Shown here: in pieces, positions 6,899-46,420 of the stretch | Numbering within the stretch: position 1 is the stretch's first letter | How the letters are laid out: the number at the start of each line of letters is the position of its first letter | NCBI GenBank assembly: GCA_964016885.1 | Contig: OZ024742.1 | Coordinates: 155,806,001 to 155,870,000, forward strand | Direction of reading: 5' to 3' | Source: Eledone cirrhosa | Taxonomy: Eukaryota | DNA length: 64,000 bases | The notes under the pieces: generated by a model | Told to the model about the DNA's origin: nothing | Database searches by the model: none | Seen by the model: the letters and a program-made list of their open reading frames with translations, nothing else | Program-made: the position numbers and the translations under genes

Positions 6899-7042
6899 CT
6901 TCAGTGACTGGGGATTCCCATCTTTGTTTCTGTGCCTCTCCTTTGTTCTGTCCTACGCCGTTTTGTTTCAGAAACAAAATGGCGTAGGACAGAACAAAGG
7001 AGAGGCACAGAAACTAAGAAAGGAATCCCCAGTCACTGAAGA
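6898..7042. repeat. Fold-back inverted repeat, ~72-bp arms, apex at 6970
   Basis: tcttcagtgactggg...ttttgtttc A gaaacaaaa...cccagtcactgaaga. Confidence 0.95.
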
Positions 7043-16530: not shown

Positions 16531-18259
16531 TAACGAAGGAAATGTGGTAAGGAACCAGATGGACCATAACGCAACAAGTACTCAATACTTAGGGTAGTAC
16601 AGTGGGTAATAGGAACAAGTATAGCTCCGACTGCAGAGCTCCAGCCGTCCCGTCAGCTAATTCTGGACTAATCATCTCCTCTAACAACAACAAACTCAAC
16701 CCCTATGGAAGTAATAACCTAGACAGCTGTGGAGAGCCGACCATGAGGTGGAACTGTCCTGATAGATCTACGTGCCCCCTCAACAACAGATGCCGAGATC
16801 GTAATGTGATCTACCAGTGCAACGTGAGGACGGACAACTCCAACAAAGCTTCTATAGGATTAACCGCTTGTGACTTCAAGACCCGGCTCTACCTACACAG
16901 ACATACTTTCTGAAACCCGGCCCGGCGTCACGCCACTACAATTAGGGCCACATCTGGGACCTCAAAGATAATATTATAACCTACCATCTCACTTGGAGCT
17001 TAGTGTCCAGAGCTAACTCTCACACGGGAGGCCGCCGTCCGTGTAACTTAGGCTCGGAGGAAACATTACAAATGCTGTTTTCGAAGGACCAACACCTAAA
17101 CAAGAATGACGAACTGGTAACTGCATGCAAACACAGATTGCGTAGGACTTACCTCGCACTCAAACCCCATAATGACCCAGGAGGGGGGGGGGTAGACAAG
17201 GGCTGAAACACCCCACTTGCGGACTTTGTAAGGGGTAACCCCTGCTTACAAGTGTAGACGTAACTTTTTTTTTTAAATATCTTTTCCTCGATATTTCCTT
17301 CTCCCCCCTATCTCTTCCTAGTCCTTCCACCCCAGACTTTTTTTTTCACCTTTTTGCCCACCCGGATGCAGCCCATCGGTCTTCTGTAGCCTCAGTACCC
17401 AACCCCCCTTATTTTAAGATAGAATTGGACGATTACGCTTTTTATAGCAGATGTATAATCCCCAGATAATTGCTTTCTTTCTGGTTTCTGTTCCATTTCC
17501 GTGATTTCTAGATTTCTTAGTGGTATTTTTGCATTAGTATTCTTGTATTAGTATTTATGTATTAGCTTTCGGAATTAATATTTCGTATTAGTTTTTTAGT
17601 ATGTTTGTCCTCAATTTATTAAACTGTCATTGTAAGATAGCATAGGCTCATTACTACCTGCTATAGTAGTGGTGTTAGACGCCCTGTAAAGATGGTTTTA
17701 TTAAATTATTTCACTACAATCGCGTATTTAGTATTTTTATCCACCTATTAAACTTGTCTATAGCTTAGCAATACCAATGAGAGATTTGGTGATTGTGGGT
17801 ATGGTGTTGTAACCAGAAATTGTTTTTTAAATATTTTTTATATAATTATTTCCTCATTTTTATAATGGCTTTTTTGTTTACTCCCTTTCGATTTACCTAT
17901 TTTTCCAACTTCCCACCCCCCTCCGCTTCTCCATTACACTTTTTTCGACCTTCTATACACTATCCTTAGAATCAGCTGTATAGATTTCACTTTCAACGCA
18001 TGATTGGGTTTCCCCCACTGTCTCTTTGCTCTACCGGCAAGTTCAGCTACCCCTACCTTCCACTAAACGCTATGATAGAATCATCTGTCTTGACAACAAA
18101 TTTTTGACGAATCCTTTTGACAATTACTCTCTTCCCATATATGGAATTAGCCCCTCAGTAGTTCGGGTATTTATTTACCAGGCTAAAAATTCTTATTTAG
18201 TTCAGAATTAGCCGTCGAAACGGCTTGAGCTCTGCCGTCCCGTCGGGGTCATACTTATT

Positions 18260-18262
<3 letters not shown>
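16531..18262 (+). mobile_element. 5'-truncated Naiad-type PLE (family C) with inverted pLTR piece at 16531-16671
   Basis: WNCPDRSTCPLNNRC, NVIYQC..SIGLT..FKTR, ELVTACKH. 3' UTR is homologous to 39900-41150. Confidence 0.88.
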
Positions 18263-18313
<51 letters not shown>

Positions 18314-18396
18314 TAATTATATATATATATATATATAGTTATGGTTATATATATACATCTATAGTTATTAGGACCAAATTACCATTCCTAGATATA

Positions 18397-19305
18397 ATGA
18401 AAATCAAAAACGACACCACCATTACCACGGATATATATTATAAACACACAGACACCCATCAATATCTGAATTTTAAGTCGTGCCATCCACCTCATACAAA
18501 ACGCAACATCCCATACTGCCTAGCCAGAAGAATTTGTACCATTGTAGAAGATACGAATACCAGGTACAAACGCCTAACAGAACTAAGAGAATTTTTGCTC
18601 AAACAAAAATACCCATCTCTACTTATAGAAAATGGCATACAGCGGGCTATAAAAATACCTATACAACAACTTAGAACAACCCAAGGAAGAAGAAACCAAG
18701 AACTGGTCATACCATTTATAATGACACACAACCCATGTCACCAGAATATATTCAACACTGCCAAAGCAAACCAACCGATCATTGCTCAAAGTAATGAATT
18801 AAAAGGCTTAATCACAGATCGATCTTTGACTCTTAGTAAAAGACAGCCAAAAAATTTGAAGCAATTGCTAACAAAAGCAAAGTTTGACCTTAACAACAAA
18901 GACCAATCGTTCACTGCATCTAAATGCAATGATAATCGATGCGGCACATGTCAATCCATACACGCCGGTCAATATATGAAAACAAAAACTGGAAAAATAT
19001 TCCAAAATGCAAATATTAACTGCAAAAGCAGAAATTTAATTTACTGCATTAAATGCCCGAATTGTGAAGAACTATATGTCGGTCAAACTGGAAATGCACT
19101 ATCGGAACGTGCACGGGTACACCGTCAACAAATCAGAGACCCAAATGTCCGTCAGATACACCTAAGCGGCCACCTGGCAACATGTGGTCAGGGAATATTT
19201 ATAATATTCCCATTCTACAAATTACACAGCCCAAGTGAAATCAAGAGAAAAATCAAAGAAAATAATTTTATTGATAAATTCAAACCCAAGCTAAATGAAC
19301 AATAA
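18397..19305 (+). CDS. PLE RT thumb + GIY-YIG endonuclease (uninterrupted 302 aa, 5'-truncated)
   Basis: ORF track; no stops or frameshifts. Confidence 0.88.
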   Translation: MKIKNDTTITTDIYYKHTDTHQYLNFKSCHPPHTKRNIPYCLARRICTIVEDTNTRYKRLTELREFLLKQKYPSLLIENGIQRAIKIPIQQLRTTQGRRNQELVIPFIMTHNPCHQNIFNTAKANQPIIAQSNELKGLITDRSLTLSKRQPKNLKQLLTKAKFDLNNKDQSFTASKCNDNRCGTCQSIHAGQYMKTKTGKIFQNANINCKSRNLIYCIKCPNCEELYVGQTGNALSERARVHRQQIRDPNVRQIHLSGHLATCGQGIFIIFPFYKLHSPSEIKRKIKENNFIDKFKPKLNEQ

Positions 19306-19685
19306 TAACGCCTAGGGGTATTACTTCCACTACCACTATGACCACGACCACTAACAACAACAACAACAACAACAACAATAATAATAATAATAAAAGTGAT
19401 GTTGATGGTGATGATTAATAGAAAATGCTATTTTCATCATTTCAAAAAGCAAAACAATTGATACGTTGGGTATGACTATTGGACGTTAGCATGCTCAACC
19501 AGCCGTGACGCTTAAACCAATCAGCTGTAGTAATTCAGTGAAACTACACACTGATTGGTCGAAATACAGTTTACAGGGCTTTGCATTCTGGAGCCACTTT
19601 TCTCTGTATAAAATGTATAAAAGGTAGTAAATTTACCCATCTCATTACAGTTGAAAATTGCAAACTCGACTGTCACCACATATCA

Positions 19686-28030: not shown

Positions 28031-28646
28031 CATACATAGGTATACACATTAATGTTATTCCTTTTTGTGTTTCATAAAATAACATATTCATATATGGAAT
28101 TGGTTAATTAATTATATTGCCATGTTTTTTTTCATGTAGAGATAAAGGTGAAAAAAGTATTTTCCTTCCGCTAAGGTGTAGAACTATATACATTTTCAAC
28201 ATACTTGAAAGCATTGGCCTAAGTACAGCATTGATGCACGTCTCATTGATGTATTCACCAATACATAAACTTTGATTTAAATATTGTTATTTCAATTTAG
28301 TTCTATGAATATATATACGTACACTCAGATTGATTTTTTTTAGTTGCAGAAGATCCCATTAAGGGTGAAAGCAGCGATACTTTGTTTAAACATTAATCTG
28401 TTATTTTTATATATACATACTACTGTACGTCTGTATACATATATGTATGTACGCATACATACTTATATTTAAGTAACAGCCGTACGAAGAGTGAGAAATG
28501 AAATTTCGTTTCATTTTTTTCCGTTTATCGTTTTCGGTACCCCGGCCGATTAACTCACTCGATATGCAAATGAGACTGCTCAGCCGTTAATATGCATACG
28601 GAAAGTATATACTTTCAGACGTTCAATCATCTGGCAGGAAGGTATA

Positions 28647-28687
28647 CGTTGCTGACGATAGCTATTAAGCTTGAAACTAGTACAGCG
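28647..28687 (+). ncRNA. Minimal type I hammerhead ribozyme
   Basis: cgttg CTGACGA t agct atta agct t GAAA CTAG TA cagcg. Confidence 0.85.
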
Positions 28688-28901
28688 TTCCTTTGTCGGT
28701 GTTGAACAAATGAGCAACGATGGTGGCTAGACACTGTACGGCTTAATTCGGGATGTTCGTTTACAAACACACCGAGCATTATAATATATGTTCCGTGAAT
28801 CCAAACGTACATACACATATGTGTGCATGTATGATTATATATATACATACTACTGTACGTCTGTATACATATATGTATGTACGTATATATACTTATATAT
28901 A

Positions 28902-28938
<37 letters not shown>

Positions 28939-42136: not shown

Positions 42137-42690
42137 TTGGTGCTCTGAAATAGCGATATATATATGAATGTATATATCGTGTATTTTGCAATACACTGTA
42201 TGCAAAAAAAAATGATAAGCACCAAAAAGTGCGAAACAGAGCTATGTCAGCTTTATCTCCCTTGTTTGCTGAAAATTAAAGTAAGTGAGACTGTCACTAC
42301 TCTAAAACAATAGCTTCGAAATGCTTTTAATTAAGCATACAGTTTATTGCAAAATACACTATATATACATTCATATATATATATCGCTATTTCAGAGCAC
42401 CAATTCTAATTTTCAATTTCTGCTTGACCGGCAACCGCTCTGTATAATCAGTTCCTGATTATTACTAGAATTCTATAAGAATCCAACATTCATGATTTTC
42501 GGCAAACAGGCGGAGTACTTAGCTTTGATAAGCACCAACGGGTGCGAAACAGAGCTCTGTCAGCTTTATCTCCCTTGTTTGCTGAAAATTAAAATAAGTG
42601 AGACTGTCACTACTCTAAAACAATAGCGTAAGGTCTTCGTAATGCTTTTAATTAAGCATACAGTGTATTGCAAAATGCACTATATATAAA
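42131..42690 (+). mobile_element. Retrozyme/pLTR-like tandem with 5' inversion; 313-nt hammerhead-to-hammerhead unit
   Basis: 42213-42370 repeats at 42526-42690; 42131-42203 is inverted relative to 42335-42410. (TA)n on both sides. Confidence 0.8.
42521..42565 (+). ncRNA. Type I hammerhead ribozyme with U3-A8 core
   Basis: agct TTGATAA gcacc aacg ggtgc GAAA CAGAGCTCTG TC agct; partial copy at 42213-42252. Confidence 0.8.
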
Positions 42691-42783: not shown

Positions 42784-43070
42784 AAAAAAAGATGAAATCA
42801 AAAATGCAACTGGAGACTTGTTTTTTTTTAAAATATACATATTTGTTTGGTTCCTTTACCGCTTTCGCATTTCTTCTACTTTTTCAAAAGTAGAGTTGAG
42901 ATGGAGGGTCTGTGGTTTTTCTCACCTCTGAGAAAGACCACAAACCCTCCATCTCAACTCTACTTTTGAAAAGCAGAAGAACAGCGAAACCGGTAAAGGA
43001 ACCAAATAAATATATATATATTTGTTTAAATAAGACTCCAGTGCATTTTCGATTTCATCTTTTTTTTTTA
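42781..43070. repeat. Fold-back inverted repeat (~143-bp imperfect arms, loop 42925-42928)
   Basis: ...gtagagttgagatggaggg..tttctca cctc tgagaaa..ccctccatctcaactctac... Confidence 0.92.
42961..43000 (+). ncRNA. Minimal hammerhead motif with U3-A8 core (mirror copy at 42852-42892, minus strand)
   Basis: tactt TTGAAAA gc agaagaaca gc GAAA CCGG TA aagga. Confidence 0.6.
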
Positions 43071-44437: not shown

Positions 44438-44719
44438 TATCGAACAGCAGAAACGCTCTTTAATACCCAATGATTCCTTGCTGTATGAACATTATATACA
44501 GTGGATTGGTAGAAAAAATAGCCTAAAAAGTATATATAGTGGATGGGCTAGAAATAATGCCCTAATACACACAACTTATAAGCTCACCTAGGAAGCGAGC
44601 GCAAATATAAATAAAAGTTAGAGTTAATAACTCATACTGATAATCTGTAATTAACAAGCTCAAAGTATATATACTCCGTAATTAAGTGGTTTAACTCCTT
44701 TAATCCAAAAAAGCGAAGT

Positions 44720-46420
44720 TTACACAGTTTGACATTGTCGATTTTTACCCATCGATCTCAGAGACCCCGTTAAACAAAGCGTTGGACTTCGCTACCACTT
44801 ATACCACCGTCGATGGTTTAGACAGGGAAATCATCGCTCACTGCCGGAAAACCCTCCTCTTCCACGACGGAGTAGCCTGTGCAAAGATGTCTACATATTC
44901 AGACCTGTTCGACGCCTCCATGGGATCGTTTGACAGTGCTGACGTATGTGACTTGGTTGGCCTTTTTATCTTAGACATATTACGTGTTAGATTCCCGGAC
45001 TTCCACACGGTAATATACCGTGACGATGGACTGACTTTATCGAGCCATAAAAGTGGTCACGACCTCGACCGGTTTAAAAAAGACTTAGCTTCTACCTTCA
45101 ATGAGTTAGGCCTTAGGATAACAGTAGCCACCAACCTCTCTAGCGTGGATTTCTTAGACATTAATTTAGAACTTCGCACACACACCCACAGACACTTCCA
45201 TAAGCTAAACGAGAAACTCAATTACATTCACAAGGACTCATGCCACATCCCACTGCTTTTAAAAACTTCGTTAAGAATATCAGTACTAGAATATCAAACC
45301 TCTCCTCTAATAAGGCTATCTTTGAGAGGGCGGCACCCTACTATAACACGGCGTTGGCTAACAGCGGCTTCTCACAACCTATCACCTACTCTCCCACTAG
45401 CAACAACACCATTAAAAAAAGTATGCGCATCAATAGACAAACTATCTGGTTCTCTCCTCCCTTCTCACTCAACGTTAAAACCAATATAGGAAAATAATTC
45501 CTAGCCCTCTTAGATAGACACTTCCCCATGGGTCATAAATACCGCTCCATCTTTAACCGACACAAAGTTAAACTAGGATACTCCTGCGCTCAGAACATGA
45601 GGGCCCACATCACCAACAGCCCTATGAGCAACACCCCACCAGGGTGCTCTTGCCGTAAGCCAGAAGCTTGGCCCCTCCAACAACAATACAACACACCAGC
45701 TGTAATCTATGAAGCTGTGGTCACTTCCAACCGAACAAACGAATCACAGGAGGTCAAATCCTATGTGGGCATGGCGGAGGGCCAATTCAAGGAGCGTTTC
45801 CTGAACCACCAGTCTACCTTCAGATACCCGCACAGACGTTCATCCACGAAACTTGCAAGCCGCCTATGGTCCCTCAAGGACTTAAGTATAGGGTACTCCA
45901 TTCAATGGAAAGCCATCACTAAGTCCAAGCCATACGCAAGGGGAAACCGACGTGTGGCTTATGTATTGACGAACGAATAACTATCCTAAAGAGATTACGC
46001 AATAGTGATTGCCTAAAGACGAGGAGGGAATTTTTCACACGTTGTCCACACGTCACCAAACATCTATTACATAACTACAAGGCTCCGGACTGATTCTTTG
46101 TAATTTTATTTTAAATTTTTTATATTTTATTTTCAACCAAAAAACTTTCCTGACTTTCGCAATTATCTCCCTTACACCCCCCGCACGCAGTGTACTATTG
46201 CCTGTGTGAAGTAACCGAGTTTCTGCGCATGCGCGTTCGTACGGTTGTCCTTCCTGTTCCTATAACCATATACATCCCGAGCTGAAGATCCGCGAAGGTG
46301 AAACAATTGTTCTCGGAATGGTGAACAAACTGTTGCGTAACCACTTCTATCTAACTCGTCTCTTAGTCTGAGTGCTCTACCACTACGGATATTACCTTCC
46401 AGTGTTCCACCACTATATAT
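44720..46420 (+). mobile_element. 5'-truncated Naiad-type PLE (family D)
   Basis: FDIVDFYPSISE, MGSFDSA, YRDDGL, VDFLDI, CSCRKPEAWPL, VIYEA..YVGMAEGQFKERF. Confidence 0.92.
46277..46316 (+). ncRNA. Minimal type I hammerhead ribozyme
   Basis: ccgag CTGAAGA t cc gcgaa gg t GAAA CAATTG TT ctcgg. Confidence 0.85.

What the first reader, a model, noticed from the sequence alone, without database searches (positions are those of the whole stretch)
28411..28898. 430-nt hammerhead cassette flanked by a 58-bp direct repeat
Seen: 28411-28468 recurs at 28841-28898 (2 mismatches). Between them are a clean minimal HHR (28647-28687), further palindromes (gaaatgaaatttcgtttc, gaaagtatatactttc), an 8-bp inverted pair agccgtac/gtacggct and an ATGCAAAT octamer. 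Inference: a slightly-more-than-one-unit insertion, as expected from reverse transcription around a ~430-nt circular retrozyme RNA, or an unusually long target duplication.
Basis: partly seen in the sequence, partly recalled or inferred. Interest (0 to 1): 0.7.

Follow-up and report, generated by a model that had tools for sequence, protein, structure and literature searches.

The report
Hammerhead retrozyme with Penelope insertion footprint
This is one of about ten thousand genomic copies of a 430-base non-coding repeat that carries a hammerhead (self-cutting RNA) motif; it is likely a protein-free jumping element of the known 'retrozyme' kind, likely pasted into TA microsatellites by a Penelope-type enzyme, and its predicted self-cutting and circular RNA are untested.

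Summary
The repeat, hammerhead motif, palindromes and octamer are all there. The 58-bp repeat is not a target duplication: it lies inside a ~428-nt tandem unit with at least 9,724 genomic copies, and this insertion is 1.15 units long. Ends are not freely permuted. 143 of 171 sampled arms end at two sites 59 nt apart that merge into (TA)n, 5' ends scatter, and 39 of 40 classifiable head-to-head insertions use one site at each end. That is the published Penelope 'tail' footprint. The unit was not found as the terminal repeat of a coding element, and no partner was identified. Copies run through the ribozyme cut without a scar (3 indels in 165 crossings), the catalytic core is conserved, and two sister families keep the same fold with compensatory changes. 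So the template is a circle (about 55-60%) or an uncut multimer; no RNA data were available. Verdict: new member of the non-LTR retrozymes. This scan has already reported similar elements in this genome and in others.

The parts
28408..28898 (+). Whole insertion, about 1.15 units of the ~428-nt family unit; 5' end truncated inside the TA-rich hairpin (unit position ~154 from the ribozyme cut), 3' end at priming site A; 94% identical to the family majority sequence
28411..28468 (+). First copy of the 58-bp repeat = unit positions ~157-214; terminal redundancy, not target DNA
28460..28475 (+). Small predicted hairpin whose loop holds priming site A (28468/28469)
   Evidence: 75 of 171 arms end at this site
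28469..28528 (+). 'Tail' between priming sites A and B (59 nt in the family, 60 here); site B = 28528/28529; holds the hairpin 28495-28517
   Evidence: 63 of 171 arms end at exactly B, 68 within its bin
28478..28485 (+). One strand of a conserved long-range helix (pairs with 28736-28743); compensatory changes in both sister families
   Evidence: alignment columns 59-65/283-289
28564..28571 (+). Octamer motif, kept in all three families, in the 5' strand of a predicted hairpin; function unknown, no likeness to this genome's U2 promoters
28601..28616 (+). Palindromic hairpin upstream of the ribozyme; a hairpin sits at this place in all three families
28646..28688 (+). Type I hammerhead motif with palindromic 6-nt helix III and U.U at the base of stem II; predicted cut 28682/28683; stem I predicted to extend to about 25 bp (28622-28651 with 28683-28707)
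28736..28743 (+). Partner strand of the conserved long-range helix
28803..28886 (+). Long TA-rich hairpin of the unit, with a length-variable (TA)n loop region
28841..28898 (+). Second copy of the 58-bp repeat, ending at priming site A
28899..28935 (+). (TA)n target run at the 3' junction
28326..28410 (+). End of another, unrelated repeat family that borders (TA)n elsewhere; forms the 5' flank, no target-site duplication visible
   Evidence: 85-nt matches in 11 other loci, two of them overlapping

Best explanation
The cassette is one 1.15-unit copy of a high-copy, non-coding ~428-nt hammerhead repeat (a non-LTR retrozyme) that is likely copied in trans by the reverse transcriptase-endonuclease of a Penelope-like element, from an RNA that is predicted to be continuous across the ribozyme cut and most likely circular. 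Steps: (1, inferred) arrays with two or more ribozymes are transcribed and cut as dimers through the palindromic helix III; monomers are ligated, and a one-ribozyme circle would cut itself poorly. (2, footprint shown, enzyme inferred) the enzyme nicks (TA)n and primes cDNA at one of two fixed internal sites, A and B, 59 nt apart. (3, shown) copying runs upstream for a variable length, through the cut site, often for more than one unit. (4, footprint shown) often the second target strand primes at the other site, giving head-to-head arms, one with and one without the tail. (5, shown for this copy) cDNA began at A, went once round and stopped about 60 nt past its start in the TA-rich hairpin, which made the 58-bp repeat. 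This copy has one ribozyme and would not release a circle by itself.
For: Copy number 9,724 exact 29-mer hits, control 0. 143 of 171 arms end at A or B into (TA)n; 5' ends fall in all 22 bins of the unit; 39 of 40 two-armed insertions with both ends at A/B are A+B, p 4e-11. A coding PLE family in the same genome also ends at two sites about 66 nt apart into (TA)n: 24 of 30 loci. Two internal RT start sites bounding the tail are shown in vitro for a PLE (PMC11167929, parts 1-2 of 4 read); tail on one inverted pLTR (PMC3846280, PMC8557442, passages). 128 of 171 arms cross the cut, 72 exceed one unit; no pile-up of 5' ends at the cut (10 vs 6.5, p 0.13); 3 indels in 165 crossings vs a median 2.3% elsewhere. 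Core substitutions 31/1979 vs 1388/53806 elsewhere, p 0.004. Three families 74-87% alike fold separately into the same set of about 13 helices; 23 of 90 consensus pairs show double changes. Rare variants are shared within an insertion (28/270 same arm, 24/201 across arms) far more than between loci (246/29748), with no advantage for arms in the same register (3.7% vs 3.8%, p 0.82, 10 loci), as expected if every turn reads the same unit.
Against: No RNA evidence at all for transcription, cutting or a circle. No partner PLE identified by sequence. In vitro a PLE uses uncut RNA and does not need its ribozyme (PMC11167929), and 8 of 9 Xenopus retrozyme dimers did not cut (10.64898/2026.07.22.740005). 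The family's stem II starts with U.U instead of G-C. Some long arrays grew by DNA duplication (L100; mosaic shared variants in a 31-unit sister array), so array length is not proof of rolling-circle copying. Outside subfamily-diagnostic sites, divergence within an insertion (3.2-3.8%) is about that between loci (3.7-4.0%): the larger gap seen came from subfamily sites and one young array. Without its TA-rich part this copy folds only at z -1.5. Rfam does not call the ribozyme.
Confidence: 0.8

Rival explanations
1. Same PLE-driven element, but the template is an uncut linear multimer transcribed from young homogeneous arrays; the ribozyme is weak or acts later, and no circle is involved.
For: Uncut RNA is the main substrate of a PLE in vitro (PMC11167929). 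Seamless crossing of the cut and arms longer than a unit fit this equally. Young, nearly uniform arrays exist (L130; 31-unit sister array) and can grow at DNA level.
Against: No carried-over source flank: the 59 head-to-head pairs counted join arm to arm within 30 nt, and 53 solo arms share no element-specific 5' flank. Arms in the same register are not closer than offset units. The old large array has units 8.9% apart and cannot be the source. The core is conserved within and across families.
Confidence: 0.35
2. The unit is just the pLTR of a coding Penelope-like element, and these are truncated solo ends.
For: All insertion hallmarks are those of PLE ends. Two loci (L018, L049) join the unit directly behind a truncated PLE endonuclease gene.
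Against: 0 of 53 solo arms have a PLE protein match within 600 nt upstream (five window fragments as queries). Arrays close on themselves for up to 7.5 units with no ORF. The L049 junction is single-copy among 40 scored hits and that PLE's own 3' region is unrelated. The coding family at window 44.7-46.4 kb has a different pLTR. Only three of probably many PLE families were compared.
Confidence: 0.06
3. The 58-bp repeat is an unusually long target-site duplication.
For: Direct repeat at both ends of the cassette, TA-rich like the targets.
Against: The same sequence is part of the unit in the other copies and sits between units in tandem arrays; flanks outside the repeat differ.
Confidence: 0.01
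4. A satellite-like repeat spread and lengthened mainly by DNA recombination, with no RNA step.
For: DNA-level duplication is visible in some arrays.
Against: Dispersed over many contigs, two fixed 3' ends, scattered 5' ends, A+B inverted arms and (TA)n targets are retrotransposition marks; compensatory RNA-helix changes.
Confidence: 0.02

Closest known systems
Metazoan non-LTR retrozymes (Cervera and de la Pena 2020, PMC7229834: parts 2-3 of 6, Discussion and passages read; Li, Clavereau and Pollet 2026, 10.64898/2026.07.22.740005: parts 1-3 of 5 read)
   Same: Non-coding tandem unit of a few hundred bases with one type I hammerhead per unit, low GC, thousands of copies, proposed circular template and PLE partner. 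U.U at the base of stem II as in axolotl HHR_Amex2.
   Different: Slightly longer than the 170-400 nt circles measured there (within the 150-450 bp repeat range). Circles and cutting were measured there, not here. The parts read argue PLE mobilisation from co-occurrence and pLTR likeness; here it rests on an insertion footprint, and no pLTR relative was found.
Endonuclease-bearing Penelope-like element insertions with pLTR, tail and inverted 5' copy (Frangieh 2024, PMC11167929, parts 1-2 of 4; Craig 2021, PMC8557442, passages; Arkhipova 2013, PMC3846280, passages)
   Same: Two fixed internal 3' ends bounding a tail, tail on one of two inverted arms, 5' truncation, partial tandems, AT-rich or (TA)n targets, hammerhead in the repeat.
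   Different: No RT or GIY-YIG ORF; tail 59 nt rather than 30-40; 3' ends show 3-4 nt TA microhomology with the target, whereas the in vitro start site of the anole element is not homologous to the cut DNA; the unit closes on itself.
PLE hammerheads with short palindromic helix III (Cervera and de la Pena 2014, PMC4209133, parts 1-2 of 4 read)
   Same: Palindromic helix III predicted to work as a dimer; that paper already proposes circles as templates for more-than-unit copies.
   Different: Helix III is kept, so not a strict min-HHR; G10.1-C11.1 is missing in this family but present in the 466-nt sister family.
Newt satellite 2 with an snRNA-type promoter (Coats 1994: not held; seen only as a citation in PMC2220036; its octamer element is recalled)
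   Same: Tandem hammerhead unit with an octamer motif.
   Different: This genome's U2 promoters show no full octamer within 400 nt and no likeness to the unit above shuffles.

Membership tests
Non-LTR retrozyme | Type I hammerhead in each unit | tested here: met
   Descriptor match; core nearly invariant in about 190-200 units; Rfam gave no hit
Non-LTR retrozyme | Tandem repeats of about 150-450 bp, dimers to multimers, many loci | tested here: met
   41 cut-to-cut units of 419-447 nt; arrays up to 7.5 units in the sample; 9,724 hits
Non-LTR retrozyme | Non-coding, low GC, no LTR | tested here: met
   Only a 129-aa low-complexity stop-to-stop frame on the minus strand overlaps it; region 35% GC; the terminal repeat is unit redundancy. 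PBS and PPT were not searched for.
Non-LTR retrozyme | Self-cleavage of the transcript | not testable with these tools
   Only indirect: core conserved
Non-LTR retrozyme | Expressed as linear and circular monomer RNA | not testable with these tools
   No RNA holder listed; the laid runs are contigs of unknown kind
Non-LTR retrozyme | Highly self-paired unit structure | tested here: met
   Majority unit folded as a circle z -7.8; same helices in three families with double changes; weaker without the TA-rich part in this copy, z -1.5
Penelope-like element (autonomous) | ORF with telomerase-like RT and GIY-YIG endonuclease between pLTRs | tested here: not met
   None in the unit; 0 of 53 solo arms with a PLE match upstream; two single-copy junctions only
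Penelope-like insertion footprint | Two fixed 3' ends bounding a tail, tail on one arm | tested here: met
   143 of 171 arms; 39 of 40 A+B pairs
Penelope-like insertion footprint | 5' truncation, partial tandems, inverted 5'-truncated copy | tested here: met
   59 head-to-head pairs among 171 arms in 103 loci; scattered 5' ends
Penelope-like insertion footprint | Microsatellite or AT-rich target | tested here: met
   (TA)n follows most A and B ends (read by eye, not counted)
Penelope-like insertion footprint | Sequence relationship to the pLTR of a coding partner | tested here: inconclusive
   No likeness to three coding families examined; about 58,000 first-look endonuclease candidates exist, most families unexamined
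min-HHR of PLEs (strict) | No helix III; G10.1-C11.1 pair | tested here: not met
   Palindromic helix III kept; U.U at 10.1-11.1
snRNA-promoter satellite (newt satellite 2 type) | Octamer plus PSE like the host's snRNA genes | tested here: not met
   Three U2 upstream regions (two distinct loci): no full octamer, alignment scores within shuffles; U6 and U1 not examined

The most novel reading that the evidence does not exclude
A Penelope enzyme dimer grips one circular retrozyme RNA and primes both strands of a (TA)n target, one subunit at site A and the other at site B, then rolls round the circle from both: double-ended rolling-circle target-primed reverse transcription. The near-strict A+B pairing, the scar-free passage through the ribozyme cut and the shared variants of both arms would be its genomic record, in a superfamily of about 39,000 ribozyme copies.
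Probability: 0.4. Interest if true: 0.62.

Novelty: new member of a known kind. Interest (0 to 1): 0.33.

Why it matters
Retrozymes were proposed to borrow Penelope enzymes, mostly from co-occurrence and pLTR likeness. This family shows the enzyme's own footprint on the retrozyme and puts numbers on it (39 of 40 two-armed insertions use one priming site at each end), which constrains how the second end of a Penelope insertion is made, a step the in vitro work left open. A short protein-free RNA with mapped priming sites is also a convenient substrate for testing circle against linear template. The locus itself is an ordinary, slightly aged copy.

Tried and rejected
Rfam scan: no hammerhead hit at this place. 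DNA search with the 3' part of the unit returned nothing because its words are too common; replaced by exact patterns. Sequencing runs: no RNA holder listed; four contig sets of unrecorded kind hold the family, at very high depth in one sample and low depth in a second organism, and say nothing on expression or circles. Target-site duplication: rejected. Pile-up of 5' ends at the cut, expected from cut linear monomers: not seen. Template jumping at the cut: no scar. Long arrays as proof of rolling circle: rejected, since L100 is explained by later DNA duplication and a 31-unit sister array has mosaic shared variants. Within-locus against between-locus divergence (2.8% vs 6.5%): mostly subfamily sites and one young array, corrected; the paired excess (5.2% vs 3.9%) vanished once rearranged arms and arm ends were left out. 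snRNA-type promoter: not supported. Partner search: two junctions to a PLE endonuclease gene are single events, chimera or target deletion. Literature: searches for hammerhead + cephalopod + repeat and retrozyme + target-primed + inverted + tail + microsatellite listed no paper on this family or on tail footprints in retrozymes; listings only, open-access library only; the bioRxiv supplements of the 2026 preprint were not seen and could list related families. The sequence look-up in earlier findings returned nothing.

Full report
Observation. The sequence is as described. 28411-28468 recurs 430 nt later with two mismatches, and the palindromes, the 8-bp inverted pair and the octamer are at the stated places. 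A type I hammerhead reads cleanly by descriptor: 6-bp stem I, CUGACGA, a 4-bp stem II with U.U at its base, GAAA, a palindromic ACUAGU helix III and a GUA cut at 28682/28683. Rfam does not call it at E<=1, and the ribozyme region alone folds like its shuffles.

It is a large family. The window lies in a 3.0-Gb animal genome; no call names the taxon. The core matched 40 of 40 scored candidates at 94-96% on many contigs. An exact 29-mer of the unit occurs 9,724 times, control 0; a 26-mer of this copy's subfamily 2,028 times. Forty-one complete units measured from cut to cut are 419-447 nt; their majority sequence is 428 nt, and the window copy differs from it at 25 sites and 4 gap positions. The 58-bp repeat is part of that unit and appears between units in arrays, so it is not a target duplication. 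The insertion spans about 28408-28898, 1.15 units.

End mapping. I took position-ordered hits on contig C1 (109 loci; the last three clusters of the first list and part of the second were not fetched), dropped four segmental duplicates and one large complex array (two loci), arms under 84% identity, arms touching a locus edge and within-locus duplicates, leaving 171 arms in 103 loci. 3' ends: 75 at site A (unit 208-221), 68 at site B (266-275; 63 at exactly 273), 10 in the TA-rich hairpin, 18 elsewhere; the two bins cover under 6% of the unit. They merge into (TA)n with 3-4 nt of TA microhomology. 5' ends fall in all 22 bins. There are 59 head-to-head pairs; of 40 with both outer ends at A or B, 39 are A+B and one is A+A (p 4e-11). 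The five two-armed insertions seen in the 466-nt sister family are also A+B.

What that footprint is. A purified Penelope-like protein starts reverse transcription at two adjacent internal sites that bound the genomic 'tail' and cuts AT-rich DNA on both strands (PMC11167929). The tail is described as present on one of two inverted pLTRs (PMC3846280; PMC8557442). A coding PLE family of this genome, with a copy at window 44.7-46.4 kb, behaves the same way: of 30 loci, 9 end at a first site and 15 at a second about 66 nt further on, into (TA)n (my 'Neptune-like' label is recalled from its cysteine linker, Pfam did not name it). So the mover is very likely a PLE enzyme acting in trans.

Not a pLTR. 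None of 53 solo arms has a PLE protein match in the 600 nt upstream, and they share no element-specific flank. Across 236 loci, 26 have PLE matches nearby and three have the unit within 700 nt downstream on the same strand; two of these (L018, L049) join a truncated endonuclease gene directly, within about 12 nt of the same place in two PLEs 76% alike. The L049 junction is single-copy among 40 scored hits and that family's own 3' region is unrelated. These are chimeras or target deletions. The partner remains unknown.

Circle or multimer. 128 of 171 arms cross the cut, 72 exceed one unit and 13 exceed two; 5' ends do not pile up at the cut (10 vs 6.5, p 0.13); crossings are scar-free (3 indels in 165, median 2.3% elsewhere). 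The template is therefore continuous across the cut. For a circle: the core is conserved (1.6% vs 2.6% substitutions, p 0.004); both arms usually carry the same subfamily (18 of 21 in the unbiased set) and share rare variants (24/201 across arms, 28/270 within an arm, 246/29748 between loci); arms in the same register are no closer than offset units (3.7% vs 3.8%, 10 loci); a palindromic helix III that works only as a dimer would spare a monomer circle (PMC4209133). Against: most divergence arose after insertion and is about equal within and between loci, which limits these tests; some arrays grew by DNA duplication; the anole PLE uses uncut RNA in vitro; 8 of 9 frog dimers did not cut; no RNA run was listed. 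I put the circle at about 55-60% and an uncut multimer at about 35%.

Structure. Two sister families turned up: one with 15,242 exact 18-mer hits (85-87% alike) and a 466-nt one (74%). A shared ribozyme pattern has 39,222 hits, control 1. Site A sits in the loop of a small hairpin in all three. The majority unit folds at z -7.8, but this copy without its TA-rich part only at z -1.5. The octamer is kept in all three families, yet three U2 upstream regions show no full octamer and no likeness to the unit, so an snRNA-type promoter is not supported.

Comparison and verdict. It meets the testable features of non-LTR retrozymes (PMC7229834; 10.64898/2026.07.22.740005) and carries the PLE insertion footprint without being an autonomous PLE. 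Cutting and circles are untested. Earlier notes of this scan report like elements of 470-591 nt in this and other genomes. New member of a known kind; the measured A+B rule is the part most worth following. Interest 0.33.

Noticed in passing
family units in L061-L198 (window equivalent 28469-28805): Sense-strand A>G changes exceed T>C (58 vs 32, p 0.006 after removing five recurrent sites), more often before G and in paired regions but without the usual ADAR 5' preference; C>G against G>C is also skewed. Possibly A-to-I editing of the template or RT bias; weak.
   Followed up: partly
L282-L283 (G000:C1:5738327-5752443): Very young 31-unit array of the 466-nt sister family ending at site A, with an inverted arm ending at site B that is identical to the array majority; units carry mosaic recurrent variants.
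   Followed up: partly
L018 and L049: The unit is joined 5' to a PLE endonuclease gene cut within about 12 nt of the same place in two PLEs 76% alike, each itself two-armed; chimera by template switch or target deletion.
   Followed up: partly
window 7036, 13639, 15407, 19691, 22687, 25197, 46282; Rfam partial hit 42213-42248: At least seven further hammerhead motifs of other families in this window, two of them behind PLE coding remnants (18229-19305 with a Pfam GIY-YIG hit; 44704-45980).
   Followed up: no
window 46226-46235 and 19517-19560: pLTR regions of two coding PLEs hold promoter-like motifs: a GCGCATGCGC palindrome and two opposed CCAAT boxes (motif names recalled).
   Followed up: no
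L199-L200 (G000:C1:118078500-118098000): Old complex array of more than 30 units, 8.9% apart from each other, next to a copy of the 466-nt sister family.
   Followed up: partly
L289-L307: Young PLE family (91-97% alike over the endonuclease region) with a 3' region of over 700 nt that is extremely AT-rich, no hammerhead seen by eye in the part printed.
   Followed up: no
G000:C3:307349256-307453739 (L269-L281): Tandem U2 snRNA array with a 2.2-kb period; upstream regions lack a full octamer within 400 nt.
   Followed up: no
window 6931-7009 and 42888-42965: Long near-perfect hairpins that score on miRNA models below their cut-offs; the first looks like a head-to-head junction of a hammerhead-bearing repeat.
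   Followed up: no
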